In this document: positions 941 to 38,959 of the stretch, in pieces
Layout of the letters: each line of letters begins with the position of its first letter
Numbering within the stretch: position 1 is the first letter of the stretch
DNA from: Escherichia phage PGN590
Reading direction: 5' to 3' (one strand)
Length of the DNA: 49,043 nt
Sequence record: NC_049830.1
Program-made: the position numbers and the translations under genes
The notes under the pieces: generated by a model
What the model was told of the DNA's origin: nothing
Database searches by the model: none
Seen by the model: the letters and a program-made list of their open reading frames with translations, nothing else

Positions 941-1149
941 TCTTCTACTACCTCGCATTCGTCATGGTTTACGCCGATGTTATCACCGATTCGAATTTCT
1001 TCCGTGTTGCGGATTGCCAACACGCAGTAAGAACCATCGCGAAAGAATCCGTCAACATCCACAATGTCACCAACTTTAAACCCGCATTGCTCAAGGGTAA
1101 TGCTTCCGTCGTTGCGGTCAATGTCAACCCTGGTGATTCGAATTTTCAT
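937..1149 (-). CDS. hypothetical protein
   Basis: ATG 1147-1149 preceded by GAGGA RBS; downstream of repeat copy at 1207. Confidence 0.5.
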   Translation of the reverse strand: MKIRITRVDIDRNDGSITLEQCGFKVGDIVDVDGFFRDGSYCVLAIRNTEEIRIGDNIGVNHDECEVVEE

Positions 1150-1206
1150 TTTGATTTCCTCTGTTTCGCTTCAATGAGGACACTTTAACAAATGCCCTCG
1201 CGGAAG

Positions 1207-1226
1207 TTTTAACAAAAAGTGCTATT
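1207..1226 (-). promoter_or_regulatory. intergenic 20-bp repeat, promoter-like
   Basis: sense AATAGCACTTTTTGTTAAAA; overlaps TAA of 1225-1512; TAAAGT about 22 nt downstream. Confidence 0.55.
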
Positions 1227-2496: not shown

Positions 2497-2545
2497 GTTC
2501 AAGCCCTCTCGTTTATTGGTGTTTGCATTATAGCGAGGCATTGCG

Positions 2546-3157: not shown

Positions 3158-3351
3158 ATTAATTTTCTCCATATTGGATTGAATGTTTACCTGGACGCTG
3201 GCGCTTCTTGCGATAGCGTTGATTCGTCTCTTGGTGCTCGTGGTAGCTGTATCGCTTCTTTTTGGATACGATTTTCTCGAAGTTTCGCATCTTCATGATC
3301 TCATGTTGTTATCTCAACATAGCGCACTGCATGAATGCGCTATAGCAAGAA

Positions 3352-3537: not shown

Positions 3538-3611
3538 TTATTGCCTCCTTCAATTACCAGCGTGTAAAGCAGAACTGGATTTTGCATGTCGCGGCGGCGC
3601 GGCTCTAGTTG

Positions 3612-3797
3612 CTAATCTAGCCATGCACATTTACCGTTCGCCACAATATAACCCACCAGGTCACTAAGTTTTGATATACCGTCTCGACTAATCACGTTGT
3701 ATGCAACGTCTTCGCCGTCAATGGAATGGATAGCAAAGAAACTTGGCGCGCCGTCAATCTTGTCTACCGCTTTGAAAAACTCCACTTTATTAGCCAT
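3612..3797 (-). CDS. hypothetical protein
   Basis: ATG 3795-3797 preceded by conserved leader CATCGACAACAAACGAGGATTAAATC. Confidence 0.5.
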   Translation of the reverse strand: MANKVEFFKAVDKIDGAPSFFAIHSIDGEDVAYNVISRDGISKLSDLVGYIVANGKCAWLD

Positions 3798-3853
3798 GAT
3801 TTAATCCTCGTTTGTTGTCGATGGGCTTACTATACCGCAAGCCCGATAATCTG

Positions 3854-3873
3854 TTTTTGCAAAAAGTGCTATT
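3854..3873 (-). promoter_or_regulatory. intergenic repeat (variant TTGCAAAAA), promoter-like
   Basis: overlaps TAG of phosphatase gene; TATAGT 22 nt downstream, then conserved leader. Confidence 0.5.
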
Positions 3874-4582
3874 CAGCGTTAACAAAATCGCCGTCACTAT
3901 GATCGAATGACCAGGTACATCCAGAATCATCATGAACTATAAAGCTCTTGTCATGATAAGAAACAACGTCATAGGCTATTCCTCTAGTAAAGCTGGCATT
4001 GACCAAGCTGTCTTTGCTGCCGACGAATCTGGCGCGCTTCGTGATCTTGATGACCTCAACGCCGTGCGATTGGATGTGACTATGTGGCTTGTCGTATTCC
4101 GTGACCTGATAGGTTGTGATTCCCAGGCTGCGGAAGTGCTTAACCACGTTAGGCGAATCATCAAAAGCGCACACAATGTTTTCCAGTCCGATAGCGCGTA
4201 AGACTTCTTCTTTGATGATTGTGTCTTTGCGGTTATCTTCCTTGCGGCGCATGATTAACGCATCGTACTTGATGCCGCTTTCGTTAAGCCATTTGCAGGT
4301 GTCCGCCATTACTTCGTCGCTACGTCCGGTCAGGATAACAATGGCAAATCCTGACATCCATAATCCGTTAACCACTGCAACCGTGCTCTTAATCGGCGAA
4401 TCTCCAACAGCCGCCTTATTGAACTCAGACCAGCTTTCTGTAAGGTGCAAATCTTCTGTCGGAAGCAGGTGCAAGCGATGCGTTCCATCGGATAAAGTGC
4501 CGTCAAGATCAACAATAACAATCGGCTTGCTGGTGGAAAAATGGTATTTGCTGCCCCAAAGTTCAAATTCGTATTTTTTCAT
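3869..4582 (-). CDS. HAD-superfamily phosphatase (polynucleotide 3'-phosphatase-like)
   Basis: DxDxT motif VIVDLDGTLSDG near N-terminus; ATG 4580-4582. Confidence 0.6.
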   Translation of the reverse strand: MKKYEFELWGSKYHFSTSKPIVIVDLDGTLSDGTHRLHLLPTEDLHLTESWSEFNKAAVGDSPIKSTVAVVNGLWMSGFAIVILTGRSDEVMADTCKWLNESGIKYDALIMRRKEDNRKDTIIKEEVLRAIGLENIVCAFDDSPNVVKHFRSLGITTYQVTEYDKPHSHIQSHGVEVIKITKRARFVGSKDSLVNASFTRGIAYDVVSYHDKSFIVHDDSGCTWSFDHSDGDFVNAE

Positions 4583-4593
4583 TATCAAACCTA

Positions 4594-4815
4594 TCAATTA
4601 AAGTGGATTTGCTTGTATTCGATTTCATCTGCCAGATCATTTAACTTATCCGCCAGCTTGCGCACCTGGTCAATGGTGAGTATTGACCTAAAATCCGGCC
4701 TGCGCCCACCCTCAAACGTGCCATCAATAAACACGCGATCTCCGAACTTATATACTTCAAGTGAATCACCATGATTATCAATAAACTTGTGCTTGACGCG
4801 CTTATTTGTTTCCAT
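4594..4815 (-). CDS. hypothetical protein
   Basis: ATG 4813-4815 with GAGGAAG RBS. Confidence 0.5.
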   Translation of the reverse strand: METNKRVKHKFIDNHGDSLEVYKFGDRVFIDGTFEGGRRPDFRSILTIDQVRKLADKLNDLADEIEYKQIHFN

Positions 4816-5032
4816 CTTTCACTTCCTCAAATTCAGCAATTACCATAGCGTGCGCCATAACCTTAGTGCCTTCGCCTCCGTTCAGGAACATGCGATGCCC
4901 TTTACTATTGCTCACGTAAAATGATCCGGTTGATGATTTCATCTTTTGCGCCGTATAGATTTCGCCAGGCTTGAACATACCAGAGCAAGCATAGTTAACG
5001 GAAACGCATTTCATCTTCTTTTTAATGTACAT
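4802..5032 (-). CDS. hypothetical protein
   Basis: start moved to ATG 5030-5032 (AAGGA RBS); track start lies inside repeat motif. Confidence 0.45.
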   Translation of the reverse strand: MYIKKKMKCVSVNYACSGMFKPGEIYTAQKMKSSTGSFYVSNSKGHRMFLNGGEGTKVMAHAMVIAEFEEVKDGNK

Positions 5033-5086
5033 CGTTTTATATCCTTCATTGAAAGTGAGGCCATTATACCTGGCCCCACATTTGAG

Positions 5087-5106
5087 TTTTAACAAAAAGT
5101 GCTATT
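5087..5106 (-). promoter_or_regulatory. intergenic 20-bp repeat, promoter-like
   Basis: canonical copy; consensus TATAAT at plus-strand 5063-5068, 21 nt downstream. Confidence 0.6.
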
Positions 5107-5330
5107 TCTTAATACATAGCGTGTGAGTGTACGCATAAAACCTGTTGTTGCTCTTGATCTGCTCTCGTGCCTCAATGCAAGATTGCTGGCTATTCATTTC
5201 GATATGGTCAACGCCGCCATCAATCATAAGAATCAGTAAAATCCAAGTAGCCATCTCTCACCTCAATAAAAGATAAACAGGTAGGCAAACAATCCGATCC
5301 ATGCGGCGACGTGCGCCGCAGTGAACAAAC

Positions 5331-6212
5331 TCAAATCTTTACCTCCCACTTAACCATCGTTCCGCGCTTGATGCTGATCTCACCTGCAACAGTCCGGTTT
5401 TTAGAGCCGCCATAGTGAAGCAGGAGGATAACAACATCATCATGAATCTCGATAGTCTTTGGTTTCGCCGTTAATTCATACCAGATGCCGTCATCAAGCT
5501 GGACTCCTTTTAGCGTAGCTGCAAGTGGCATATCTTCAATGGCGCTCTGACTTACGAGGTTTCGCGCAACAATGCCATGCCCATTGATTGTTTGACTGTG
5601 AATCTGTTCACCAATACGTCGCGCGGCGTTATCTATAGCCTGAGCAATGTGTGACTTACCGCCACCGATTGGCGCATCTCCAAACAAGTGTTTTGTAATG
5701 TCTTCCACATAGTAAATCTTATCTTTTTCATTGTGCGGATTGTATTTATTATGACCATTAACAAAGAAATCCACCTTAAGCTCTGATTTCTGACCATCGC
5801 TATAAACGCCATTGTCGCGCGATGTGTAGCGAATCGTTGAATTACCAGCGGAGCGGAAAGTGATCGGATATTTGATATTATCCACGTCTAAGCACCACAA
5901 TTTTTTGTAGTCGCATGTATTCATCTTGATCATCGGAATCTCTGCGCGTTCCGGTGAGCGCACCGGTAACACCTGGCCCCTGTATGGCTTGTAGTGGAAA
6001 CATGTATATCCTGGCATTGCATAGCCGTAGTCTTTTCGCGAGTTATAGTGCTTGTTATGCACATCAATGAAGTACTCAATCTCCATTGATGAAACACCAG
6101 GCTTTCCGTATTCGTTAAACGTAGTGCATGTATTTTCATCGGTGAACATGAAGTGTCCGACCCCCTTTGATTGGAAGGTGATCGGGAATTTGATGTTAGC
6201 AAGTTTTAACAT
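5331..6212 (-). CDS. hypothetical protein with tandem duplicated N-terminal domain
   Basis: AGGAGA RBS; NIKFPITFQSKG...FIDVHNKHYN repeated as NIKYPITFRSAGN...FVNGHNKYNP; IGGGKSH Walker-A-like segment. Confidence 0.55.
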   Translation of the reverse strand: MLKLANIKFPITFQSKGVGHFMFTDENTCTTFNEYGKPGVSSMEIEYFIDVHNKHYNSRKDYGYAMPGYTCFHYKPYRGQVLPVRSPERAEIPMIKMNTCDYKKLWCLDVDNIKYPITFRSAGNSTIRYTSRDNGVYSDGQKSELKVDFFVNGHNKYNPHNEKDKIYYVEDITKHLFGDAPIGGGKSHIAQAIDNAARRIGEQIHSQTINGHGIVARNLVSQSAIEDMPLAATLKGVQLDDGIWYELTAKPKTIEIHDDVVILLLHYGGSKNRTVAGEISIKRGTMVKWEVKI

Positions 6213-6291
6213 GGTGCTTTCTCCTGATTGGTTTTGTGGGCGACGCCGTGCCGCCCTATGTTATTTATTATGCCTGGTTATCGTTTTTTAG

Positions 6292-6311
6292 TTTTAACAA
6301 AAAGTGCTATT
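6292..6311 (-). promoter_or_regulatory. intergenic 20-bp repeat, promoter-like
   Basis: abuts TAA of 6311-6496; CATAAT about 22 nt downstream. Confidence 0.55.
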
Positions 6312-6496
6312 TAGAATTTTACCTCTTCAACAAGCTCAACCATTTTATAACCTAGCAGATAAGAGTCACCGAACAACAAGATCCCCATAAATTCATCGCG
6401 GCTTATTGACTCTTTACCAACCGTTCTAAGCTCGCCATTGTGAATCACAGTATCGCTGATATTGATTTCTGATTTATGGACTAATTTCGTTTTCAT
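6311..6496 (-). CDS. hypothetical protein
   Basis: ORF track; ATG 6494-6496. Confidence 0.45.
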   Translation of the reverse strand: MKTKLVHKSEINISDTVIHNGELRTVGKESISRDEFMGILLFGDSYLLGYKMVELVEEVKF

Positions 6497-6511
6497 TTAT
6501 TCACCCGCTAA

Positions 6512-6697
6512 TTAAAAGAAAGCCACATAGTTTGCAATGCCTTTGGCGTCATCGTTTGGCATTGCTTTTACAGCCAGGTCATAACCTGCATCTACCTTCT
6601 GTTTTGCTGTTTCTTCGTTGTAGCCCCAGATAATCAGAATTTTAACTACGTTTTCTTTGTTCAGTACTTTAAGGTCTTTGGTGATGCGACGTGCCAT
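6512..6697 (-). CDS. hypothetical protein
   Basis: ATG 6695-6697 with GAGGAAA RBS. Confidence 0.5.
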   Translation of the reverse strand: MARRITKDLKVLNKENVVKILIIWGYNEETAKQKVDAGYDLAVKAMPNDDAKGIANYVAFF

Positions 6698-6754
6698 TTT
6701 GTTTTCCTCAATCTCGTTTCGATGAGGCTATTATGCCAGGCTTTGCGCCTGGCG

Positions 6755-6774
6755 TTTTAACAAAAAGTGCTATT
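6755..6774 (-). promoter_or_regulatory. intergenic 20-bp repeat, promoter-like
   Basis: overlaps TAG of lipoprotein gene; GC hairpin in spacer; CATAAT downstream. Confidence 0.55.
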
Positions 6775-7030
6775 TAATATCTGTTGTGACTTGTTGGTGC
6801 ATTACGTTTTTGCCGCTGTTGTATGTGCTATCCGTTGCGCCATTACAATTGGTGTAATAGATTGCTCGACCGTTGTCATAGAATCGGTACGCAGTGCATC
6901 CATCCACAGTAAACAGGCGACCGACTTTAAAATCTGACTCCACTCCTACGACAACCGTTGATTCCGATGCCTTCTCGCATCCGGTCAGGGTAGCAATTGC
7001 AATCAAAACTCCAATTAATGCCTTACTCAT
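6770..7030 (-). CDS. lipoprotein
   Basis: signal peptide plus lipobox LIAIATLTGC; four further Cys in mature part. Confidence 0.55.
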   Translation of the reverse strand: MSKALIGVLIAIATLTGCEKASESTVVVGVESDFKVGRLFTVDGCTAYRFYDNGRAIYYTNCNGATDSTYNSGKNVMHQQVTTDIK

Positions 7031-7508
7031 CCTCTTTCCCTCCAGCGAGTTTACGAATCATGTCCTGGTAGCGCCCTATAGCCTCACACGCTCCAGCAAG
7101 TTTGTCGCCTTCCATGTCTGTGATATTTGGCATTACGTTTACCAGGTGATTAAGAATTTTGCTTACCGCCTTCTCTGCGCGCTTTTCTGCGATCTCGTCG
7201 ATTTCTTCACCAGTCAAAACGCGAGGCTTGCTTTTGGCTTCGGTGAGCGTAAACACAAAGCCATCACCCTCATCAGTCACCTTTCGCTTAATGCTGATCA
7301 CTCCTTTTTGCTTTACTTCTGGCACACGGTTGACAACCTGGCGCATGTACGATGCCGTAATTGCTTCGCCGTTCTCCACATTAGCGCACAAAAAAAGTGC
7401 TGGCATGAATACATTATTACGCTCACCACTACCAATTGCCGCGCCCAAGTCGCGAAGCATATCGCAAAACTCACTACGCGACATGGTGATAATATTTTCT
7501 TCGCTCAT
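7023..7508 (-). CDS. hypothetical protein
   Basis: ORF track; first gene transcribed leftwards from control region. Confidence 0.5.
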   Translation of the reverse strand: MSEENIITMSRSEFCDMLRDLGAAIGSGERNNVFMPALFLCANVENGEAITASYMRQVVNRVPEVKQKGVISIKRKVTDEGDGFVFTLTEAKSKPRVLTGEEIDEIAEKRAEKAVSKILNHLVNVMPNITDMEGDKLAGACEAIGRYQDMIRKLAGGKEDE

Positions 7509-7829
7509 AGCATCTACTCCTTTTGTTGCGTTTAAACTGGATGCATTATTGCCTTGCCTCTCCTACATGTCAATATATTTTGTGTTTTAACAACAATTTT
7601 TGGCATGTGGCGCGTTTAAAGATAACAAAATGCTTCAGTTAAGTCATTGGTTTTTATGTTAAAAATGACCCTGTTGACTTGGTTGACGGAGGATTGCTTC
7701 ATACCCATATATATACATACAAAAATCACCACGCATCATCATTGATTAAAAAATATACAATCACACATACATATCACCACAAACAATACCAATCCACCAC
7801 ATACCCATAGAACAAGCACAACAGTAAAT

Positions 7830-7870
7830 AACAAATATAAATACATATATAACTAACTTATTGATTTTAT
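7830..7870. repeat. conserved block shared by both strand-switch control regions (copy 1)
   Basis: AACAAATATAAATACATATATAACTAACTTATTGATTTTAT; about 33/40 identical to 28024-28063; flanked by CA-rich tracts. Confidence 0.6.
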
Positions 7871-7922
7871 GGGTATATATATAAATTTTATTTTGTTCTT
7901 TTTGTTGATGAACGCCAATTCT

Positions 7923-7957
7923 GTTATCTCAAAGTGCGGAGGCTTATTTGAGATAAC
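7923..7957. repeat. perfect 11-bp inverted repeat with 13-nt loop
   Basis: GTTATCTCAAA ... TTTGAGATAAC in non-coding control region. Confidence 0.6.
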
Positions 7958-8107
7958 GCGGGGAACAGAAATAACAGTTGTGCGCGCCAGGATTGCAGGA
8001 AAGGATGCAAGAGGGCCACATTTCTCTATCCCCTCCACACAAAAAGTTAATCACTTGATTAAAATTGATCAAACTCAAAGTCTCACAATCCAGGTGATCG
8101 CGAATGA

Positions 8108-8150
8108 TTTATTCCTGTTATTCCTGATTAATGGAATAGATGGAATAATG
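8108..8150. promoter_or_regulatory. dyad-symmetric operator-like element
   Basis: TTATTCCTG TTATTCCTG attaat GGAATAGAT GGAATAATG; two direct 9-mers mirrored around ATTAAT, 12 bp upstream of promoter-like repeat. Confidence 0.5.
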
Positions 8151-8161
8151 ACCAGTCAGCA

Positions 8162-8180
8162 AATAGCACTTTTTGTTAAA
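8162..8180 (+). promoter_or_regulatory. intergenic repeat, promoter-like (first rightward promoter)
   Basis: TACATT 22 nt after TTGTTA; drives 8244 gene; dyad element just upstream. Confidence 0.55.
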
Positions 8181-8243
8181 CCTGAATTGCCATGATCGGG
8201 TACATTAGACACATCGAAACGAGATACCCATCAGGAGATAGCA

Positions 8244-8516
8244 ATGAACATCAGCAAAACCACTTTCAACTTTGCAAAGCGTCACGGTCTGGATCTGACT
8301 GTTGAAGATTTTGGCGATGTTCTGCAACTATGCATTTGGGAAGCGGATAACGATTGCGAGTGGCTTTGCTCTTATCGCATCAATTACCATTGCTTAACCT
8401 GGCACGGCAATATCTATCTGCCGCAAGAAGTGAAAGAGGAATTGCCAGCGACCATCAATAATGAAGTGTTTTTGCGCAAAGTCCTGAAGTTTATTGCTGA
8501 GGAGATCAAGAAATGA
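8244..8516 (+). CDS. hypothetical protein
   Basis: AGGAGA RBS; first rightward gene after promoter-like repeat at 8162. Confidence 0.5.
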   Translation: MNISKTTFNFAKRHGLDLTVEDFGDVLQLCIWEADNDCEWLCSYRINYHCLTWHGNIYLPQEVKEELPATINNEVFLRKVLKFIAEEIKK

Positions 8517-8758
8517 TTGATGAAGTGGATTTTGAACTTGCAGAGGCCCAGGTAAGGGCCAAAAAGATGGGATTGCGGATCCTGAAGAAAACAGTCGAGT
8601 TCCCGTCGATGCCGTTCGCATCGTTTCATAAAGTGACGGTATTCAGTAGAAAACGCGAGTGTAATGCGCTAATCCCTGTTGGTGATGATAAGCGCATGGC
8701 TAAATTCATTAACGAGTCCTGTGATGTTCTGATGGCCGTTAAACACGATCAACAATGA
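8513..8758 (+). CDS. hypothetical protein
   Basis: ATG overlaps upstream stop (ATGA). Confidence 0.5.
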   Translation: MIDEVDFELAEAQVRAKKMGLRILKKTVEFPSMPFASFHKVTVFSRKRECNALIPVGDDKRMAKFINESCDVLMAVKHDQQ

Positions 8759-8771
8759 AGGGGAAATAAAG

Positions 8772-9038
8772 ATGGCACGAATCAATGCACCTATTCCAGT
8801 AAAACGCAAAGCACGACTGCTTAACAATGGATGTTACGCCATGCGGCCTGCATTTAAGGATCGCACCTTTCCGGTTATCGTCAACGTGTTGTACGTAAGC
8901 CGTAGCGGGAATCTGGCCTTTGTTAGCGGTGAAGATCTGGCGGCGATTGGATTCTATGGCGGTATTTACAGCGAACCGCTCGGATTCTGGATTGTAAATC
9001 CGTCAACTGGAGAACGCGAAATCGAACTCCTGGACTAA
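8772..9038 (+). CDS. hypothetical protein
   Basis: GAAGGGGAAA RBS; stop overlaps repeat motif. Confidence 0.5.
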   Translation: MARINAPIPVKRKARLLNNGCYAMRPAFKDRTFPVIVNVLYVSRSGNLAFVSGEDLAAIGFYGGIYSEPLGFWIVNPSTGEREIELLD

Positions 9039-9056
9039 TAGCACTTTTTGTTAAAA
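9037..9056 (+). promoter_or_regulatory. intergenic 20-bp repeat, promoter-like
   Basis: overlaps TAA of 8772-9038; TACATT 22 nt downstream; conserved leader. Confidence 0.55.
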
Positions 9057-9114
9057 CTCAATCCTCGTGTTCCTGTACATTACACACATCAACAACGAAT
9101 GCGAGGATTTGAAA

Positions 9115-9267
9115 ATGGTTACTCTGATTACCTGGGAACACGAAAACAGCCAGCCGGAAGCGCGCGAGTTTGAAACTGTAGCGGCATGTTATAACCTTGC
9201 GAAAAATGGTGGCTTCTATAAGGCGCAAATCGTTAACGAATTTGGAGTTGTTGACTATGAGTTCTAA
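9115..9267 (+). CDS. small hypothetical protein (50 aa)
   Basis: start set to ATG 9115 after conserved leader and GAGGA RBS. Confidence 0.45.
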   Translation: MVTLITWEHENSQPEAREFETVAACYNLAKNGGFYKAQIVNEFGVVDYEF

Positions 9268-9547
9268 ATTTTACAGCTACACCGATACCGTGGATTTTGA
9301 GGGGATACAATTGCCCCTCCCTAATATATACCGCTATATCACGCGTGACGAACGCGGATATATTGAAGCGTGGCGCTCATATCCAGTGCGGGATCTTGAA
9401 TTTGGCGGCTTCCGCTCTCTTGAGGGTGAGTTGCCGATCTGCTTCGGTCATCAAAGCGGTGAAAATCTTCCGGTTGTTGCGCGGCAGTATCGCAGACACA
9501 AGATCACAAGAGCACTTATCTCTTTAACTGGATCTGTTGTTGAATAG
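9257..9547 (+). CDS. hypothetical protein
   Basis: ATG 9257 overlapping upstream gene end; stop TAG inside repeat motif. Confidence 0.45.
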   Translation: MSSKFYSYTDTVDFEGIQLPLPNIYRYITRDERGYIEAWRSYPVRDLEFGGFRSLEGELPICFGHQSGENLPVVARQYRRHKITRALISLTGSVVE

Positions 9548-9562
9548 CACTTTTTGTTAAAA
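9543..9562 (+). promoter_or_regulatory. intergenic 20-bp repeat, promoter-like
   Basis: overlaps TAG of 9257-9547; TATATT 22 nt downstream; conserved leader. Confidence 0.55.
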
Positions 9563-9618
9563 ACGGTATGCGCCTGAATGGTATATTACATCCATCAACA
9601 ACGAACGAGGATTTAAAA

Positions 9619-9813
9619 ATGGAAAATCAAGTTGATGTTAAAGTTTTACAGCGTGACACCACTCACGAGAAAGGAATCTTTAAGAAAGGCGCTATCATCA
9701 CAATTGATATTGAGGATATGGTTGCGTACCACTCAGGGCTAACTTGGAACGTTGTTAAACATGGCAATGCTTTCAAACTGCGTGGATTCAATACTATTAT
9801 GGAGGTTGTGTAA
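9619..9813 (+). CDS. small hypothetical protein
   Basis: ATG 9619 after conserved leader CATCAACAACGAACGAGGATTTAAAA. Confidence 0.45.
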   Translation: MENQVDVKVLQRDTTHEKGIFKKGAIITIDIEDMVAYHSGLTWNVVKHGNAFKLRGFNTIMEVV

Positions 9814-10094
9814 TGGCCTACAAAAACAGCGATTTTAAAAACTCAGCCGAAACAATCAATGCGGCGCTAATTAAACAACGCGCTTATAGATTCTGGCTTG
9901 ATTATCATAATCTAAGGAAAAAGATTGATAATCTTATCAAGAATGGTAACGCGTCATGTTCTAACATTACGGTTTGGCGCAATATGAACGCGCAGTACGG
10001 CAAGGGAAAAATCCGTTTATTTGGTGGATCTGTTGAAGCGTATGTGTTTAGCGGAACAAAAGTTGTAAGTTTTAACGTTGTTGGCATTAATTAG
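9813..10094 (+). CDS. hypothetical protein
   Basis: ATG overlaps upstream stop (TAATG). Confidence 0.45.
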   Translation: MAYKNSDFKNSAETINAALIKQRAYRFWLDYHNLRKKIDNLIKNGNASCSNITVWRNMNAQYGKGKIRLFGGSVEAYVFSGTKVVSFNVVGIN

Positions 10095-10195
10095 ATGAAG
10101 CTAATAATATTCCATAATGCCTGGATGGTAGCTGTTGCAAATGATCATTATGGCGGAGACGGCAAGCGAGCAAAGCGCCACAGCTATTTCAACTG

Positions 10196-10214
10196 ATAGC
10201 ACGAATTGCTAAAC
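10196..10214 (+). promoter_or_regulatory. divergent repeat copy (ATAGCACGAATTGCTAAAC), promoter-like
   Basis: CATAGT 22 nt after TTGCTA; upstream of 10269 gene. Confidence 0.45.
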
Positions 10215-10268
10215 AATATTTCTAAAACCTGGCATAGTTACAACACCAAATATAATGAGGATTGCATA

Positions 10269-10496
10269 ATGAAAGCTAAAGTAACTAACATCATGCACAC
10301 TGTTGATGCACATCACCGCGTGGCAGTGAAAATGGATAAATCTTGCGGAATCAACCAGTTAACAATAACAAGCGGTAAAGGTGTGTTTGTTGTTGGATCA
10401 CATCCAGGTAGTAAAATCCGCAAATATACTCGCGAAGAATTGATTAAACTGCTGGAAGAAAACAGCATGTTTATTGAAAGCTGGAAGGCTATCTAA
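10269..10496 (+). CDS. hypothetical protein
   Basis: ATG 10269 after GAGGATTGCATA; followed by hairpin 10506-10523. Confidence 0.45.
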   Translation: MKAKVTNIMHTVDAHHRVAVKMDKSCGINQLTITSGKGVFVVGSHPGSKIRKYTREELIKLLEENSMFIESWKAI

Positions 10497-10505
10497 TTAA
10501 TAAAC

Positions 10506-10526
10506 GGGAGGTTTTCGCCTCCCTTT
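10506..10526 (+). terminator. putative intrinsic terminator (weak U-tract)
   Basis: GGGAGG-ttttcg-CCTCCC then TTT. Confidence 0.4.
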
Positions 10527-10546
10527 AAATAAAGGCGATAATAACG

Positions 10547-10657
10547 ATGAAATTTCTTGATATTTTATTTGGTGTGATGATTGGCCTTGCTGGTCTTTTA
10601 GTTGTCACTGCTGGTCTTGCTATTATTCTGATTGTTATCAAGGAGTTTATGAAATGA
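10547..10657 (+). CDS. small hydrophobic peptide (36 aa, single TM), not in ORF track
   Basis: MKFLDILFGVMIGLAGLLVVTAGLAIILIVIKEFMK; stop overlaps next start (ATGAAATGA). Confidence 0.35.
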   Translation: MKFLDILFGVMIGLAGLLVVTAGLAIILIVIKEFMK

Positions 10658-10878
10658 GTCAGGATGGATTTTTTGAGAGACTGCAAAAAGCGGAAGATGC
10701 TGGACTGAATAAAGAGGCCGCTCTTGAAGTTGCATATAAGATCAGGACACTTGATGATGCGTTGGGTGAAATGGATATGGAACATGAATGCGGTGCTGCA
10801 TTTGCAGATCCAACGATGATTGTTAATGATTGCGGCTGCAATTTTGATCCTAACTGTCCGCGATGCTTTCCGTTTTGA
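10654..10878 (+). CDS. hypothetical Cys-rich protein
   Basis: C-terminal CGCNFDPNCPRC cluster; start coupled to upstream peptide. Confidence 0.45.
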   Translation: MSQDGFFERLQKAEDAGLNKEAALEVAYKIRTLDDALGEMDMEHECGAAFADPTMIVNDCGCNFDPNCPRCFPF

Positions 10879-10887
10879 GGTGATGAA

Positions 10888-11598
10888 ATGCATAAAGGTT
10901 TGATTTTCTCTTTGTTTGATGGATCTGGTAAAGCCGTTAAAGATTGGGCTGACGCTGGATATAAATGCATTTGCTTTAATTACGATGATGCTGATCACGG
11001 TGATTACCACTCAGTGCGCATAATCCACGACAATATTTTTTACGTTAATGTGTGGATTGATGAGCTATTCAAATATACCGCAAAACTTGAAAATTGGGGT
11101 AAGCCTGATTTTATTATGGCGTTCCCTCCATGCACTGACCTTGCAAATAGCGGATCTCGCCATTGGGCTAAAAAACGCATTGAGAATCCATCGTTCCAGG
11201 ATGAAGCCGCCGACACTTGCAAAATAGCGGCGCAAATTGCTGATTATTTCGGTGTTCCGTACATGATAGAGAATCCTGTAGGCAAGCTGTCAACGCTATG
11301 GCGCAAGCCTGATTATACGTTCCATCCGTGCGATTATGCTGGCTATCTGCCGGAAGATGATAAACATCCCGACTTTCCTGATATTATTCCGGCGCGGGAT
11401 AGGTACTTTAAGAAAACATGCCTTTGGACTGGAAACGGATTTGTTATTCCTCCTCGCGCAACAATCCTTCCTAAAGAGGGCGACAAGGATAATCCTGGTT
11501 GGGCCAAAACTGGCGGAAAATCATCTCGCACAAAGATGATCCGCTCCCTCACACCGCGCGGTTTTGCTCGCGCAGTATTTGAAGCAAACGCAAAATAG
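10888..11598 (+). CDS. DNA (cytosine-5) methyltransferase-like protein, compact
   Basis: motif I-like LFDGSGKA, PC motif AFPPCTDLANSGS, ENV-like MIENPVG; no obvious target-recognition domain. Confidence 0.5.
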   Translation: MHKGLIFSLFDGSGKAVKDWADAGYKCICFNYDDADHGDYHSVRIIHDNIFYVNVWIDELFKYTAKLENWGKPDFIMAFPPCTDLANSGSRHWAKKRIENPSFQDEAADTCKIAAQIADYFGVPYMIENPVGKLSTLWRKPDYTFHPCDYAGYLPEDDKHPDFPDIIPARDRYFKKTCLWTGNGFVIPPRATILPKEGDKDNPGWAKTGGKSSRTKMIRSLTPRGFARAVFEANAK

Positions 11599-11613
11599 CA
11601 CTTTTTGTTAAAA
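11594..11613 (+). promoter_or_regulatory. intergenic 20-bp repeat, promoter-like
   Basis: overlaps TAG of methyltransferase-like gene; CATAAT at 11633-11638. Confidence 0.55.
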
Positions 11614-11669
11614 GCTAGGTGTAAAAGCCTGGCATAATCACTTCACCGAAACGAAAGGAGAAATAAACG

Positions 11670-12056
11670 ATGAAAGTTATCTGCAATAAAACCAACGTTT
11701 TGATGAACGGTCGTTATAAAGCTGTATACGAAAAAATTGCTGGTAGCGATGATGTGATCGAGTTGGAACAATTCCAGGTAAAGAGCATTACAAAGGGTAG
11801 CAAGTGGCAAAATGCTGTTGAGTCTGACTATCGTAATATCAAGACAAAAACAATTAAATGCACATTTGTAGATCACAAGATCCCGTGCAAAAAGCATTTC
11901 AAAGAAGGAAAGCGCTACCAGATTGAGCAAGGCCGCGCTCTTGGCGCTGTTGCTGGTTATGTGTTTGATGAAGCTGGCGACCGCTGGACGCTATACCGCG
12001 AAGAAGTTGGGTTTTCCGCTGGTGGCTGTCATTTATTTGAGGCTATGTATAAGTGA
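11670..12056 (+). CDS. hypothetical protein
   Basis: AAAGGAG RBS; promoter-like repeat upstream. Confidence 0.5.
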   Translation: MKVICNKTNVLMNGRYKAVYEKIAGSDDVIELEQFQVKSITKGSKWQNAVESDYRNIKTKTIKCTFVDHKIPCKKHFKEGKRYQIEQGRALGAVAGYVFDEAGDRWTLYREEVGFSAGGCHLFEAMYK

Positions 12057-12274
12057 TCAAGGCTGAATATCGCTATAAGGTGACTCATTCAGCAACAAAA
12101 ACCTTCAAGCCTGGCGATATAGTCAGGCCAATAAAGAAAACGATGGTTGGATGGCTGATTGGTCTTTCTTACCACAAATCACTTTATTTTGATTTTGCTG
12201 ATTCCGTAACCGCGTATTGCCATAGCGCAAGGGAACCAGAAAAAATCTTAGTTAGCATAGAGCGGATCAAATAG
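12053..12274 (+). CDS. hypothetical protein
   Basis: GTG start overlapping upstream stop (GTGA); stop TAG inside repeat motif. Confidence 0.4.
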   Translation: MIKAEYRYKVTHSATKTFKPGDIVRPIKKTMVGWLIGLSYHKSLYFDFADSVTAYCHSAREPEKILVSIERIK

Positions 12275-12288
12275 CATTTTTTGTTAAA
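12270..12288 (+). promoter_or_regulatory. intergenic repeat (variant AATAGCATTTTTTGTTAAA), promoter-like
   Basis: overlaps TAG of 12053-12274; TATTAT at 12309-12314 inside a hairpin. Confidence 0.5.
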
Positions 12289-12343
12289 TGCGGGTAGCAT
12301 TGGTGCGGTATTATTGCCGCATCAAAAAAAGGAGTTATCATCA

Positions 12344-13927
12344 ATGAATTTTTCGTTTGAAACCAATAAACTAACACCAAAACAAATTATCGAATTAGCT
12401 GATGCACAAGGATTGTCTCCGGTGCGCGTGTCCATTCAGGCAAACGGATACCGTCAATCGTCCAGCTTTTGGGGTGAGGTTAATGATGTTAATAACGGAA
12501 ATGATCGCTACCCTGTAATTTCTCTTGGTAATGATGTTGATGTTGTTGGTAAGTTGGCGCGCAACATTGCTCGATCAGTTCAGTTCCCTGAATCATCGGC
12601 ATATATGCACTTTATAGGCTGCGTGTCTGCTGCAATGCTTGGACGCTTCACGGTTGAGTATCACGGAACGGATCAGCCGACCGCTCTTTATGTTGTCACA
12701 AGCCAGCCTCCTTCAACTGGTAAATCCGCCGTTAACAGCCTGGCACTTGCTCCAATGGTTGCAGAAGTGGAAAGAATTAACGATCAGCGAAAGAAGGAAA
12801 GAAAAAAGATTCAGGCAAAGTTGGCAGGTCTTGCAAAAGAGATGAAAAGCGAGCGCTCCGGCGCTGATATGGAATCTCTGTACCAGGAGAAAGAAGATCT
12901 GGAAGAAAAACTTGAAAAGATGTGTGACATTGTTTTCCCTGTGTCCGACACCACGCCGGAAGGACTTGCAAGAATCAACAATCGCCAGGGTAACTTTGCT
13001 GTGATTTCAGACGAGGCAACGAGTATTAACAGCCTTTTAGGTCTGACATATGCCAATAGCGAACGTAAAACCAACAGCGAACTTGTGCTGAAAGCATGGG
13101 ATCATGGTCATGTTTCTATAGCTCGTGCAAACGCTGACAACAATATGAGTTTTAAAGCTCTTGGCTGTATGGCTGTAATTGCCCAGGATGAAACAATCAA
13201 TGCCATCATGGATGCAGGATCGCGCGGTATCGGTGTAAGTGAGCGTTATTTGCTTGTACGCGAGGAATCATTTTTAGGCCGTAGAAAGTTTGTTGATGAT
13301 AACGGTGATTCTACTTATGAGCCTGTTGATGGAGAACTGAAAAGCCAATATTTCAAGCTGATCCATAACATCATGAGTGAATCAAACATCCAGCTTAAGA
13401 TCAGCAAATCAGCAATGCGAGTTCTTAACATGGCTCGTCAGGAGATGGAACCGCACCTTGCTGATGGAGGAAAATATTCGCATACAATGCTGCGCGGCGC
13501 TCTTGGCAAAATGGATAAGCAGGTGATCAGGATTGCTTCGGTTTTGCACACTATCCGAAACTGGTTTAATCCTGGCGGATACCCTCAAAAGTCGAAAGAG
13601 ATTGAGGTTGAAACCGTTCAGGAAGCATTGCTGATGTTTAGCGAGTTGAGCAAAACATACATTAGCGCCGCCAACGCTTCTGGCTATGCTGGTGATGATG
13701 CTGAAATGGGTAAACTAATCGAGATCATCACTCGACACGGCAAGGCTAATAAGGGGATCTTGAATGTGCGCGCAATATATGAGGCTGCACGAAAAGTTAA
13801 GCCGTTTATTGGCCAGGCTGGCGTAATGAAGCGTATGGAAACGCAACTGCTGCCGATGCTTGAAGAAAGAAATTATATTTGTGTGATTAATGGAGTTGTT
13901 TTTGTAAATCCAACATTGCTGGGGTAA
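12344..13927 (+). CDS. P-loop NTPase (SF3-helicase-like Walker A)
   Basis: AAGGAG RBS; Walker A VVTSQPPSTGKSA; Walker B-like FAVISDEA; coiled-coil insert between them. Confidence 0.5.
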   Translation: MNFSFETNKLTPKQIIELADAQGLSPVRVSIQANGYRQSSSFWGEVNDVNNGNDRYPVISLGNDVDVVGKLARNIARSVQFPESSAYMHFIGCVSAAMLGRFTVEYHGTDQPTALYVVTSQPPSTGKSAVNSLALAPMVAEVERINDQRKKERKKIQAKLAGLAKEMKSERSGADMESLYQEKEDLEEKLEKMCDIVFPVSDTTPEGLARINNRQGNFAVISDEATSINSLLGLTYANSERKTNSELVLKAWDHGHVSIARANADNNMSFKALGCMAVIAQDETINAIMDAGSRGIGVSERYLLVREESFLGRRKFVDDNGDSTYEPVDGELKSQYFKLIHNIMSESNIQLKISKSAMRVLNMARQEMEPHLADGGKYSHTMLRGALGKMDKQVIRIASVLHTIRNWFNPGGYPQKSKEIEVETVQEALLMFSELSKTYISAANASGYAGDDAEMGKLIEIITRHGKANKGILNVRAIYEAARKVKPFIGQAGVMKRMETQLLPMLEERNYICVINGVVFVNPTLLG

Positions 13928-17150: not shown

Positions 17151-17319
17151 GCTTATAATATGCCTCCGCAAATTCTAATGGGTAGTGACCATATGCAACG
17201 CGAAGTAGAATCATTGCCGCACCCCAATCAAGCTGCATATTGTTTTTAGTTCCACCTTTTACCGCCTCGCGTGAGGTTTGTTGCGCCTGGTCAAATGCTT
17301 TCTTGCTGTATACTACCAT
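17140..17319 (-). CDS. small hypothetical protein (59 aa), not in ORF track
   Basis: ATG 17317-17319 after GAGGAAATAAAA; downstream of promoter-like repeat at 17377. Confidence 0.4.
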   Translation of the reverse strand: MVVYSKKAFDQAQQTSREAVKGGTKNNMQLDWGAAMILLRVAYGHYPLEFAEAYYKHEG

Positions 17320-17376
17320 TTTTATTTCCTCATGTTTGTTTCGTTGAAATAATTATGCCCGACACAAAGCCGGGCG

Positions 17377-17396
17377 TTTTAACAAAAAGTGCTATT
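17377..17396 (-). promoter_or_regulatory. intergenic 20-bp repeat, promoter-like
   Basis: overlaps TAG of 17392-17631; GC hairpin in spacer; CATAAT downstream. Confidence 0.55.
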
Positions 17397-26686: not shown

Positions 26687-27748
26687 TTAAATAAGATATT
26701 GCTTAAACTGGCGGCGCACCCAATCAGGAGTATCAAGGCAAACCTCAGGCTCACCGTTTGAATACGAAGGCCAAACGTCATGTTGCTGGCACATGGCAAA
26801 CTGGTTAATCACGCTCGTGTACTGAATGCGCCCGATCTTCAACTGCTCGCTATTCATGCGGAAAGCCAACGGCAAATAAGGCTCTTTCTTCTCTTGGGCT
26901 AACAGTCGCACAACTATAGGTCGCTTTTCTTCTGGATATGCTTTCCTGAATAAATCACATTGCAACGCCATTTTCAAATAATATCCGTGATTGTAAGCCA
27001 GGCGCATAAACTCAACCGGATTAGCGCTCATTGTGGTTTTGTAGTCTGTGATCACAATGGCCTCTGGATAAATAATATCTCTGCAAATAGGCTGGCCTTT
27101 TTCATCGTAACCATCAATCAGCGTTGCGGTGACGTTCTTTGTTACGTCAACGTGATCGCATCGAACTTTGACTTTTACGCCGTTAATTTCACCGAATAGC
27201 GATAATTCACGTTGTGCTGTCTTGCTATTCATACATGCGTTATGTTCAGGTATGGATTCAAGAACCTGGCGCATTGCCACGCACGCATCGTAATCTTTAG
27301 CCTCGATTAACTGAACCCCATCGGCCCTGGCTTGACTTTCTGCGATCATCTCAATCAACCACATAACGTTAAGGTCTTCTCCGCAATCAACCATCATTTT
27401 GATAAGATCTGGATAAGTCTTTCCGGTTGTACCTTTCAGGCCAAATGATTTCAGTTTTGCAGCCAGCGCCGTTTGGCTAGTTATCAGATCCTTAAAGTCT
27501 TCTGTCGCTGGCGCACGGCGATAGTTTTTTTCGAAAAGCTCCTTGCTTTCAAAGTTGGTATGCGACTGCGTACCGAAAACTAGCGCTTTGCTCTTATCAT
27601 CACGAGGCTTGAACTTCCACGCCGCCGGGCATGTGCTGTAAATCTCTGCCAGGCTTGATCCGCTAACATAATCAGCCGTCCACGCTTCTGGATCGTGATA
27701 AAGCTCGTTGCTCATTTCTTCGCTGGTGTACGCCATAAACTTATTCAT
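26687..27748 (-). CDS. RecB-family PD-(D/E)xK exonuclease
   Basis: ITDYKTT motif typical of RecB/Cas4-type nuclease domains; partner position to Erf. Confidence 0.65.
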   Translation of the reverse strand: MNKFMAYTSEEMSNELYHDPEAWTADYVSGSSLAEIYSTCPAAWKFKPRDDKSKALVFGTQSHTNFESKELFEKNYRRAPATEDFKDLITSQTALAAKLKSFGLKGTTGKTYPDLIKMMVDCGEDLNVMWLIEMIAESQARADGVQLIEAKDYDACVAMRQVLESIPEHNACMNSKTAQRELSLFGEINGVKVKVRCDHVDVTKNVTATLIDGYDEKGQPICRDIIYPEAIVITDYKTTMSANPVEFMRLAYNHGYYLKMALQCDLFRKAYPEEKRPIVVRLLAQEKKEPYLPLAFRMNSEQLKIGRIQYTSVINQFAMCQQHDVWPSYSNGEPEVCLDTPDWVRRQFKQYLI

Positions 27749-28023
27749 GATTTGCCCTCATTGGTTGGTATGTCTGCATTGTAGCTATTTGATGCGTTTA
27801 GTCAATAGTTATTTTGTTTTTTCTGTTCTAACAACGTTCTCACCAACTTTGGTAACAAAACTTACATGTAAGAGATTGATAAATATCAGTGTTGTCTTTT
27901 TGTTCTCTTGTTCATCCATTTGCGCCGGATATAGATATATAGACACACAAACACTAACACATACACAACCAAATAAAAATTACCAGACACACAAAATCAC
28001 ACAAAACATAGATAACAAGAAAA

Positions 28024-38954: not shown

Positions 38955-38959
38955 TGTGA

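What the first reader, a model, noticed from the sequence alone, without database searches (positions are those of the whole stretch)
8190..9618. Conserved 5' leader shared by independently promoted small early genes
Downstream of the -10-like hexamer several genes share a leader of the form TACATTACACACATCAACAACGAA(TG)CGAGGATTTNAAAATG: 9076-9114, 9582-9618, variant at 8201-8243, and minus-strand relatives upstream of 3612-3797 (CATCGACAACAAACGAGGATTAAATC) and 937-1149. Conservation of an untranslated leader suggests a shared post-transcriptional element (RNA-binding protein site, processing site or structured translation signal) in addition to the promoter.
Basis: seen in the sequence. Interest (0 to 1): 0.45.

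Follow-up and report, generated by a model that had tools for sequence, protein, structure and literature searches.

The report
Conserved transcript start in T1-like phage promoters
The shared "leader" is real: it is the first ~11 transcribed bases (consensus ATCGAAACGAA) of a promoter cassette reused many times in this T1-like phage and across its whole family. It is locked to the predicted transcription start rather than to the ribosome-binding site and has no RNA structure, so it is most likely a start/escape signal for the host RNA polymerase that also gives a short open leader.

Summary
The window is a T1-like phage (Drexlerviridae, Hanrivervirus-like).

- **The repeated unit.** Seventeen copies of a known 16-21 nt direct repeat (AGCACTTTTTGTTAAA) are each followed, almost always 20 nt later, by a good -10 hexamer.
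- **The motif in the window.** In 10 of the 17, the base 7 nt after the -10 starts ATCGAAACGAA or the one-base-longer ATCRACAACGA.
- **The motif in the family.** Among about 156 diverged promoter sites from T1, Rtp, TLS and metagenomic relatives, 32% match at least 9 of 11 bases at exactly that register, against 0.1% in controls.
- **What it is anchored to.** The motif is fixed to the -10 (sd 0.3 nt), not to the Shine-Dalgarno sequence (sd 3.7 nt). It is absent upstream of internal genes.
- **What it is not.** It is unstructured, matches no Rfam family and is not complementary to 16S rRNA.
- **Resemblance.** It resembles the mapped starts of T7 A1/A3 and rrnB P1.

Best reading: an initial transcribed sequence of a host-polymerase promoter that doubles as an A/C-rich open 5' UTR. 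A 5'-terminal RNA tag bound by a protein is not excluded. The upstream repeat is published; the +1 motif was not found in the searchable literature. The start site itself is inferred, not mapped.

The parts
8165..8180 (+). Upstream direct repeat (DR) AGCACTTTTTGTTAAA of promoter 1, about -48 to -33
   Evidence: Exact match. Corresponds to the published TLS repeat aaATAGCACnnnTTGnTAAAA.
8201..8212 (+). -10 hexamer TACATT (8201-8206) plus discriminator agacac
   Evidence: Lies 20 nt after the DR.
8213..8243 (+). Predicted 31-nt leader. Core ATCGAAACGAG at 8213-8223, SD GGAG, ATG at 8244.
   Evidence: Matrix score 12.4. Core invariant in 6 Hanriverviruses while the spacer, -10 and discriminator vary. 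Unstructured.
9040..9055 (+). DR of promoter 2
9076..9087 (+). -10 TACATT plus discriminator acacac
9088..9114 (+). Predicted 27-nt leader. Core ATCAACAACGA at 9088-9098, SD GAGGA, ATG at 9115 (DUF7170 gene).
   Evidence: Matrix score 9.0. Relatives have ATCGA(C/T)AACGA. Pfam result.
9546..9561 (+). DR of promoter 3
9582..9593 (+). -10 TATATT (preceded by TGG, extended -10-like) plus discriminator acatcc
9594..9618 (+). Predicted 25-nt leader. Core ATCAACAACGA at 9594-9604, ATG at 9619 (Pfam Gp54 gene).
3797..3870 (-). Whole cassette: DR 3870-3855 (2 mismatches), -10 TATAGT 3834-3829, +1 at 3822, core ATCGACAACAA 3822-3812, ATG at 3797
   Evidence: The arms gggctt/aagccc flank the -10.
1149..1223 (-). 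Whole cassette: DR 1223-1208, -10 TAAAGT 1187-1182, +1 at 1175, core ATTGAAGCGAA, ATG at 1149
   Evidence: Matrix score 10.6.
6697..6771 (-). Whole cassette: DR 6771-6756, -10 CATAAT 6735-6730, +1 at 6723, core ATCGAAACGAG, ATG at 6697 (DUF7421 gene)
   Evidence: Matrix score 12.4. Pfam result.
11597..11672 (+). Whole cassette: DR 11597-11612, -10 CATAAT 11633-11638, +1 at 11645, core ACCGAAACGAA, ATG at 11670
   Evidence: Matrix score 12.8.
12273..12346 (+). Whole cassette: DR (1 mismatch), -10 TATTAT, +1 at 12321, core ATCAAAAAAAG, ATG at 12344 (DUF3987 protein)
   Evidence: Matrix score 9.2. Pfam result.
17319..17393 (-). Whole cassette: DR 17393-17378, -10 CATAAT, +1 at 17345, core AACGAAACAAA, ATG at 17319
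   Evidence: Matrix score 12.3.
27746..27805 (-). Canonical sigma-70 promoter without a DR: TTGACT 27805-27800, 16-nt spacer, TACAAT 27783-27778. A related leader ATACCAACCAA starts at 27771; ATG at 27748.
   Evidence: Matrix score 9.2 in the correct register. This is the only DR-less example in the window.

Best explanation
The 'leader' is the transcribed end of a promoter cassette that T1-like phages use for most early and DNA-metabolism operons.

The cassette, from 5' to 3':
- stop codon of the upstream gene;
- the direct repeat ATAGCACTTTTTGTTAAAA, at about -48 to -33;
- a 20-bp spacer that is hypervariable but usually hairpin-forming;
- (T/G)G plus a TATAAT-like -10;
- a C/T-rich 6-nt discriminator ending in C;
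- +1 A, followed by TCGAAACGAA (or TCRACAACGA);
- more A/C-rich bases, then GAGG/GGAG and the ATG 23-31 nt from +1.

No phage RNA polymerase was found among the nine largest ORFs, so the host sigma-70 holoenzyme is assumed.

Proposed mechanism (inferred, not shown). First, C(-1)A(+1) fixes the start site. Second, the purine-rich, T-poor +2..+11 stretch, with AAA at +5..+7, is an initial transcribed sequence that lets polymerase clear a very tightly bound promoter quickly. Third, the same bases give a very short, G/U-poor, structure-free 5' UTR that leaves the Shine-Dalgarno sequence open in primary transcripts.

Shown: the motif, its register, its family-wide conservation, its absence at internal genes and its lack of structure. 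Inferred: the start site, and the effects on escape and translation.
For: Cassette geometry: 17 DR copies against 1.3 expected. The DR-to--10 spacing is 20 nt in 218 of 271 family sites. G at -14 is 0.82, C at -1 is 0.76 and A at +1 is 0.83. Positions +2 to +11 read T C G A A A C G A A at 0.43-0.71 each.

Register: 44 of 54 strong motif copies lie exactly 6 nt after the -10. The sd is 0.29 nt to the -10 against 3.7 nt to the SD or ATG. Summed information content is 4.18 bits -10-anchored against 2.67 bits SD-anchored.

Frequency: 32% of 156 site clusters match at least 9 of 11 bases, and 20 clusters match all 11, against 0.1% in coding controls.

Specificity: the motif is absent upstream of 62 internal genes in the window. 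One DR-less canonical promoter carries a related leader in register.

Selection: the spacer has almost no sequence conservation while both flanks do. Orthologue mismatch is 0.174 in the spacer, 0.148 in the discriminator and 0.080 in the motif. The site at 8213 is invariant in six genomes whose -10, discriminator and spacer differ.

No structure.

Host-polymerase link: with starts as annotated in the T7 record, T7 A1 (C|ATCGAGAGGGA) scores 6.7 bits (about 0.4% of random window positions score that high). T7 A3 (C|ATGAAACGACA) scores 11.9 bits if one gap is allowed. rrnB P1 (C|ACTGACACGGA, start placed from my own knowledge) scores 8.2 bits (about 0.1% of positions).

Literature (PMC5961368): the first ~10 transcribed bases change escape kinetics over about three orders of magnitude. 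Slow sequences carry several T's in the first ~7 bases, with TG worst at +5/+6. Purine content correlates with productive yield. The motif has a single T, AAA at +5..+7 and 8 of 11 purines.

No phage polymerase among the nine largest ORFs. The TLS paper reports none either.
Against: - No transcription start has been mapped for any of these promoters. +1 is inferred from the 7-nt rule.
- The motif contains CG steps at +3/+4 and +8/+9, and Y-G steps are reported as pause-prone during initiation. It is therefore not simply the best-escaping sequence predicted by published rules.
- Exact 11-of-11 identity at many sites is more than composition-level optimisation would need, which leaves room for a specific binding partner.
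- The comparison promoters (T7 A1/A3, rrnB P1) were chosen from memory of a resemblance, so their p-values are biased.
- Seven of the 17 window promoters lack the motif, so it is not obligatory.
- The family sample was retrieved through the exact DR 16-mer, and its 156 clusters are not phylogenetically independent.
Confidence: 0.55

Rival explanations
1. 5'-terminal RNA tag. The first ~11 nt of primary phage transcripts (5'-AUCGAAACGAA) are recognised as RNA by a host or phage protein. Candidates are ribosomal protein S1, CsrA at the adjacent ACGAGGAU, or an unknown early phage protein. Alternatively a 5'-end-dependent enzyme recognises them. Either would control translation or stability of promoter-proximal mRNAs specifically.
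For: The same +1 anchoring fits a 5'-end-anchored RNA element. Exact 11-mer identity in 20 clusters suggests a sequence-specific reader. The leader is single-stranded and so accessible. Predicted SD accessibility is higher in primary transcripts than in read-through transcripts (0.68 against 0.475), so 5'-end identity could matter. Many small early proteins of unknown function are encoded right here.
Against: No RNA-binding domain was found in the ten early proteins scanned. A common one-base insertion variant and A/C-only variants (ACACCAACCAA) occupy the same place, which a strict protein site would tolerate poorly. The resemblance to T7 A1/A3 and rrnB P1 starts points to the host polymerase rather than a T1-specific reader. 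There is no complementarity to 16S rRNA beyond chance (6 nt, and 185 of 300 shuffles match as well).
Confidence: 0.25
2. DNA operator. The +1..+11 sequence, roughly two CGAAA units, is a DNA site for a phage regulator that switches the whole promoter set off or on. This would resemble the 'stoperator' idea raised for the upstream repeat.
For: A conserved 11-bp block overlapping the start site is where repressors usually act. The TLS authors raised regulator-binding explanations for the cassette. The DR itself looks like a specific protein site rather than a plain A/T tract (ATAGCAC and TAAAA are conserved while the middle varies).
Against: The block has no dyad symmetry. Indel and composition variants are tolerated. 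Seven of 17 DR promoters lack it. A related leader occurs at a canonical promoter without a DR. Similar sequences occur at T7 and rRNA promoter starts, which do not share T1 regulators.
Confidence: 0.1
3. No function of its own. The motif is inherited from a single ancestral cassette and kept similar by gene conversion between copies.
For: The window has the same G-to-A change at +4 in both neighbouring cassettes (9088 and 9594), where five relatives have G at both. That looks like conversion between copies 506 bp apart.
Against: The 20-bp spacer lying between two conserved blocks is completely different at every site. Conversion tracts would have to skip it every time. The motif persists across T1, Rtp, TLS and Hanrivervirus lineages and evolves at half the spacer rate.
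Confidence: 0.06
4. The similarity is only what -10 and ribosome-binding-site requirements produce.
For: C(-1)A(+1) and the GAGG/GGAG block are generic requirements. The A/C-rich composition continues up to the SD.
Against: The conserved positions +2..+11 lie between the two signals. Internal genes with good SDs lack the motif. SD-anchored alignment shows only composition, not a motif.
Confidence: 0.02

Closest known systems
21-nt direct repeats of T1-like phages (TLS: aaATAGCACnnnTTGnTAAAA; PMC11447400, 2024)
   Same: It is the same element, found upstream of every leader here. It points in the direction of transcription, is intergenic and lies about 73-79 nt before the start codon. It is also reported for T1, Rtp and Rogue1.
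   Different: The paper treats the repeat alone and leaves its function open (stoperator, enhancer site or UP element). It found only three sigma-70-like promoters. It does not describe the fixed 20-nt link to a -10, the +1 motif or the spacer hairpins.
Initial transcribed sequences of strong host-polymerase phage promoters (T5 N25, T7 A1/A3). Effects reviewed in PMC5961368.
   Same: These are transcribed bases +1 to about +10 that set promoter output. T7 A1 and A3 start C|ATCGAG... and C|ATGAAACGA..., close to C|ATCGAAACGA.
   Different: In those phages each promoter has its own sequence. Here one sequence recurs at many promoters of a genome and across a family. No biochemical data exist for it.
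T7-type phage-polymerase promoters, whose consensus runs into the transcript (to about +6, GGGAGA). From my own knowledge.
   Same: The promoter consensus extends past +1, so many phage mRNAs share a 5' end.
   Different: Those promoters are read by a phage-encoded single-subunit polymerase. None was found among the nine largest ORFs scanned.
E. coli rrnB P1
   Same: It has an upstream A/T-rich element, a C-rich discriminator, an A start and an A/C-rich initial transcript. It scores 8.2 bits in the same register.
   Different: rrnB P1 has a near-consensus -35 at 16 bp. The DR cassette has nothing -35-like at 16-18 bp: TTGTTA lies 22 bp from the -10.
Unstructured A/C-rich translational enhancers (CAA-rich leaders such as TMV omega, thought to act through protein S1). 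From my own knowledge.
   Same: A/C-rich, G/U-poor and unstructured sequence directly 5' of the SD.
   Different: Such enhancers act by composition and need no fixed register. This motif is a specific sequence fixed to the start site.
Start-associated sequences of cluster K mycobacteriophages. From my own knowledge.
   Same: A short conserved motif recurs in front of many genes of one phage, with unknown function.
   Different: Those motifs are tied to the start codon and RBS. This one is tied to the -10 and start site and is absent from internal genes.

Membership tests
T1-like (Drexlerviridae) DR promoter cassette | 21-nt repeat aaATAGCACnnnTTGnTAAAA, many copies per genome | tested here: met
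   17 copies at up to 3 mismatches against 1.3 expected. Consensus as published.
T1-like (Drexlerviridae) DR promoter cassette | Intergenic, co-oriented with the downstream gene, about 76 nt before the start codon | tested here: met
   The DR start lies 73-79 nt before the ATG at the nine sites listed under 'parts' that carry a DR. Exceptions: 38876(+) and 42635(+) lie antisense in the late region.
T1-like (Drexlerviridae) DR promoter cassette | Genome is a T1-like phage | tested here: met
   93.6% identity to Escherichia phage herni (Hanrivervirus).
Sigma-70 promoter (extended -10 type) | TATAAT-like hexamer with A at -11 and T at -7, TG at -15/-14, start about 7 nt downstream | tested here: inconclusive
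   A TATAAT-like hexamer was found after 271 of 324 DR copies (A at -11 and T at -7 were required by the filter). G at -14 is 0.82 but T at -15 only 0.41. Nothing -35-like at 16-18 bp. Promoter activity and start site were not measured.
UP element | A/T-rich tract at -59 to -38 contacted by the alpha C-terminal domain | tested here: inconclusive
   The DR spans about -48 to -33 and contains TTTTT and TAAAA. However, its best-conserved part is ATAGCAC, and the T-tract is replaceable by AAA or GAA in TLS. Binding is not testable here.
Structured cis-regulatory RNA leader (riboswitch, ribosomal-protein leader, thermometer) | Conserved secondary structure within the leader | tested here: not met
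   MFE is -0.7 to -4.1 kcal/mol, five z-scores positive and one -0.05. Family leaders are less structured than shuffles. No Rfam match.
rRNA-complementary translational enhancer (T7 gene 10 epsilon type) | Complementarity of the leader to 16S rRNA outside the anti-SD | tested here: not met
   The longest complement is 6 nt, and 185 of 300 shuffles do as well or better.
Start-codon-associated repeat (mycobacteriophage SAS type) | Fixed distance to the start codon or RBS, and present at internal genes | tested here: not met
   The distance to the ATG varies (sd 3.7 nt). The motif is absent at 62 internal genes.
Initial transcribed sequence controlling promoter escape | Occupies +1 to about +10 in fixed register to the -10 | tested here: met
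   44 of 54 copies lie exactly 6 nt after the -10.
Initial transcribed sequence controlling promoter escape | Changing it alters abortive and productive transcription | not testable with these tools
   This needs in vitro transcription. Published rules are only partly matched: the motif is T-poor with AAA at +5..+7, but has CG at +3/+4.
Phage-polymerase promoter with a conserved +1 region (T7 type) | Phage encodes its own RNA polymerase | tested here: not met
   The nine largest ORFs are tail, tape-measure, terminase, portal, capsid and similar proteins. The TLS paper reports no polymerase or sigma gene.

The most novel reading that the evidence does not exclude
5'-AUCGAAACGAA is a viral 5' tag. 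It would mark transcripts that initiate at phage promoters, as opposed to host mRNAs and read-through phage RNA, which carry a hairpin ending exactly at -1 in front of the same bases. A dedicated phage or host factor would read the tag to favour their translation or protect them during host shut-off. This would be a bacterial analogue of the common 5' leaders of some eukaryotic viruses.
Probability: 0.1. Interest if true: 0.8.

Novelty: new variant of a known kind. Interest (0 to 1): 0.45.

Why it matters
T1-like phages are among the commonest and fastest coliphages, yet their promoters are essentially uncharacterised. The 2024 TLS re-annotation found only three sigma-70-like promoters and left the repeat unexplained.

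The evidence here is that the repeat, a fixed 20-bp spacer, a -10 and a conserved +1..+11 block form one unit. That turns the repeat into a testable promoter model and gives a much fuller predicted promoter map for this phage family.

A natural case where dozens of promoters share one initial transcribed sequence would be a useful test of how those bases control escape by E. coli polymerase. It would also supply compact strong expression cassettes: promoter plus a 25-nt open leader, often overlapped by a hairpin, about half of them terminator-like.

If the motif instead proves to be an RNA tag, that would be a new layer of phage gene control.

Tried and rejected
1. **Structured RNA.** Folding of six window leaders and 127 family leaders found no structure. 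Rfam gave nothing at gathering threshold over the window and nothing meaningful at E up to 1 over 8100-9700.
2. **Pairing with 16S rRNA.** At chance level.
3. **General RBS context.** Internal genes lack the motif, and SD-anchored alignment shows only A/C richness.
4. **Motif count in the whole window at up to 3 mismatches.** At chance (64 against 58 expected). The signal appears only when the register to the -10 is used.
5. **Evolved SD masking in read-through RNA.** SD accessibility does drop (0.68 to 0.475), but chimeric upstream regions give the same drop (0.467, p = 0.78). The effect is generic, not co-evolved. Site 9040 may be a local exception.
6. **RNA- or DNA-binding domains in the neighbouring early proteins.** None found. 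The 'polyribonucleotide nucleotidyltransferase' label in a relative is on the gene that corresponds by position to the window's 75-aa ORF at 10269-10493, which has no Pfam support.
7. **A second DR-less canonical promoter at 7573-7545.** I first counted it as carrying the leader. On reading the sequence, the motif-like stretch is out of register (+1 region AGTTTAAACGC), so I dropped it.
8. **Literature.** No paper in the library contains ATCGAAACGAA in a phage context, and none maps transcription starts in Drexlerviridae.
9. **Generic sigma-70 and terminator scans.** No excess over shuffles in 1-13000.
Full report
**What the window is.** The region 7800-10800 is 93.6% identical to Escherichia phage herni and similar to JakobBernoulli, pSf-1 and other Hanriverviruses (Drexlerviridae, T1-like). 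The nine largest ORFs are tail, tape-measure, terminase, portal and capsid proteins and the like, and the 681-aa ORF at 18821-20863(-) is a helicase. No phage RNA polymerase was found among them, in line with the TLS paper. Host polymerase is therefore assumed.

**Checking the observation.** The two minus-strand relatives are present. The 22-mer leader occurs twice at up to 3 mismatches with none expected.

**The real repeated unit.**
- Every leader sits behind an exact or near-exact AGCACTTTTTGTTAAA. There are 17 copies at up to 3 mismatches against 1.3 expected.
- Fifteen are co-oriented with the downstream gene. In 14 of the 17 a TATAAT-like hexamer follows exactly 20 nt later.
- This repeat is published. 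The 2024 TLS re-annotation describes a 21-nt repeat aaATAGCACnnnTTGnTAAAA, 21 copies, about 76 nt before start codons, also present in T1, Rtp and Rogue1. Its function was left open (stoperator, enhancer site or UP element), and only three sigma-70-like promoters were found.
- A generic sigma-70 scan of 1-13000 likewise finds no excess of canonical promoters.

**Family-wide evidence.**
- An exact-match scan of IMG/VR with the 16-mer returned 118 loci, including contigs whose lengths match T1, Rtp and TLS.
- From these, 256 distinct cassettes with a -10 were aligned on the hexamer. The repeat-to-hexamer spacing is 20 nt in 218 of 271 sites. G at -14 is 0.82, positions -4..-1 are C/T-rich with C at -1 at 0.76, and A at +1 is 0.83. 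Positions +2..+11 read T C G A A A C G A A at 0.43-0.71 each.
- The 20-nt spacer carries almost no sequence information.
- The sites were clustered by downstream coding sequence into 156 groups. Twenty groups have all 11 bases, and 32% have at least 9 of 11 at the register 6 nt after the hexamer, against 0.1% of control positions.
- Common variants are a one-base insertion (ATCGACAACGA or ATCAACAACGA, the form at 9088 and 9594) and A/C-only forms (ACACCAACCAA).
- Caveat: the sample was retrieved through the repeat itself, and the clusters are not phylogenetically independent.

**What the motif is anchored to.**
- Of 54 strong copies, 44 lie exactly 6 nt after the -10. The sd is 0.29 nt, against 3.7 nt for the gap to the Shine-Dalgarno sequence or ATG.
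- Anchoring the same sites on the SD leaves only A/C-rich composition. The best 11-nt window then carries 2.67 bits, against 4.18 bits for +1..+11.
- In the window, a matrix built only from other phages scores at least 9 bits in register at 10 of 17 promoters. Only 0.09% of all positions reach even 8 bits.
- Promoter-proximal genes score a median of 9.2, against 2.8 for 62 internal genes (p = 2.6e-5).
- One canonical promoter without the repeat (TTGACT-16-TACAAT, 27805-27778, minus strand) also starts with a related ATACCAACCAA in register. A second candidate at 7573-7545 turned out to be out of register.
- The motif therefore belongs to the transcription start, not to the ribosome-binding site.

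**Selection.**
- Between orthologous cassettes, mismatches per site are 0.174 in the spacer, 0.148 in the discriminator, 0.080 in +1..+11 and about 0.08 in the rest of the leader.
- At 8213 the motif is invariant in six Hanriverviruses whose spacer, -10 (TACATT or CATAAT) and discriminator differ.
- The window carries the same G-to-A change at +4 in both 9088 and 9594, where five relatives have G. This hints at gene conversion between neighbouring cassettes.
- Conversion alone cannot explain two conserved blocks separated by a spacer that is different at every site.

**Tests of RNA-level ideas.**
- The six window leaders fold at -0.7 to -4.1 kcal/mol, five with positive z-scores and one at -0.05.
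- Family leaders with the motif fold at -1.48, against -2.70 kcal/mol for shuffles.
- There is no Rfam hit and no complementarity to E. coli 16S rRNA beyond chance.
- None of the ten neighbouring early proteins has a recognisable nucleic-acid-binding domain.
- 'Structured signal' and 'rRNA-pairing enhancer' are rejected. A single-stranded protein site at the 5' end cannot be rejected.

**Link to the host polymerase.**
- In the T7 record the E. coli promoters A1 and A3 are annotated to start at C|ATCGAGAGGGA and C|ATGAAACGACA. The rrnB P1 region reads TATAAT gcgccacc ACTGACACGGA, with the start placed from my own knowledge.
- In the same register, A1 scores 6.7 bits (about 0.4% of random window positions score that high) and rrnB P1 scores 8.2 bits (about 0.1%). 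A3 scores 11.9 bits with one gap, and A2 does not match. I picked these promoters from memory of a resemblance, so the numbers are suggestive only.
- Published work shows that the first ~10 transcribed bases can change escape kinetics over three orders of magnitude. Slow sequences carry several T's in the first ~7 bases, with TG worst at +5/+6, and purine content correlates with yield (PMC5961368).
- The motif has one T, AAA at +5..+7 and 8 of 11 purines. It also has CG at +3/+4 and +8/+9, which those rules would not favour.

**Best explanation.** The leader is the transcribed end of the T1-family promoter cassette. C(-1)A(+1) sets the start. The +2..+11 stretch is an initial transcribed sequence for rapid clearance of a tightly bound host-polymerase promoter. 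The same bases, plus the following A/C-rich stretch, make a 23-31 nt open 5' UTR. I put this at about 0.55. The anatomy is shown; the start site and both functional effects are inferred.

Rivals:
- a 5'-terminal RNA tag read by a protein (0.25);
- a DNA operator (0.10);
- hitch-hiking or gene conversion only (0.06);
- -10 plus RBS only (0.02, contradicted by the data).

**Surroundings worth recording.**
- The 'variable' spacer nearly always holds a GC-rich inverted repeat. Mean MFE is -8.7 kcal/mol, against -4.85 for chimeras of one site's 5' part with another's 3' part (p = 4e-18).
- The arms differ from site to site but stay complementary (ggggta/tacccc, gggctt/aagccc, ggcgct/agcgcc and others).
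- The sense strand folds better than the antisense strand (-8.68 against -6.78, p = 5e-11), with 148 G-U pairs against 57. GNRA and UNCG loops occur, which points to an RNA hairpin in read-through transcripts.
- In one class (49 clusters) the stem ends at the start of the -10, and in 27 of 49 the -10/discriminator serves as a U-rich tail, so these look like terminators.
- In the other class (53 clusters) the 3' arm is the discriminator, and the stem ends exactly at -1 in 45 of 53.
- The motif occurs with both classes and with neither.

**Novelty and score.** The upstream repeat is known. The fixed link to a -10, the +1..+11 motif and the overlapped RNA hairpins were not found in the searchable literature, though its coverage is incomplete. 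I class this as a new variant of a known kind: a host-polymerase promoter with a conserved initial transcribed sequence. Interest is 0.45.

Noticed in passing
window 38876-38960 (+), and L005, L008, L055, L092, L094: A DR copy with a good -10 (TATCAT) lies antisense between two minus-strand late genes. Its predicted transcript (ACAGTAACAAA...) runs straight into the hairpin GGGGCGCAACGCCCC, which on the minus strand is a strong terminator (CCCCTTTTTTTG). The arrangement is conserved in relatives. It could be a tiny antisense RNA or an orientation-independent factor site.
   Followed up: partly
window 42635-42650 (+): Another antisense DR copy sits about 50 nt upstream of the major capsid gene (start 42586, minus strand). 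It has a poor -10 (TATGAG) and no ORF behind it. No sense-oriented DR exists anywhere in the late region from about 24800 to 49000.
   Followed up: partly
promoter spacers, e.g. window 6755-6724(-), 17377-17346(-), 3854-3823(-), and 145 family sites: GC-rich RNA hairpins with compensatory arm changes are embedded in the promoters. One class ends at the -10 and is often terminator-like. The other uses the discriminator as its 3' arm and ends exactly at -1.
   Followed up: yes
window 9059-9066 and 9101-9108: AATCCTCG in the promoter spacer is complementary to CGAGGATT, the Shine-Dalgarno region of the DUF7170 gene. Read-through RNA folds at -18.9 kcal/mol with the SD buried, while RNA started at 9088 lacks the 5' arm. 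The arm is kept in 5 of 6 Hanriverviruses. Other lineages bury the same gene's SD with CCTCAA/TTGAGG. A family-wide test found no site-specific effect.
   Followed up: partly
window 9088-9098 and 9594-9604: Both neighbouring cassettes carry A at +4 where five relatives carry G at both sites. This suggests gene conversion between copies 506 bp apart.
   Followed up: partly
window 9619-9813: The gene behind the third leader matches Pfam PF25180, 'Phage antiviral trigger protein Gp54' (E = 1.7e-36). The gene behind the second leader is DUF7170.
   Followed up: no
window 24010-23970 (-): An orphan near-perfect motif, CATCAAAACGAA, lies 8 nt before GAGGAG-ATG. It has no DR and no -10 in register. 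It may be a decayed cassette or chance.
   Followed up: partly
window 1209-1238 (+): The reverse complement of the DR supplies TTAACA, which with TATAAT 18 nt downstream gives an 11-of-12 sigma-70 match pointing antisense to the minus-strand genes.
   Followed up: no
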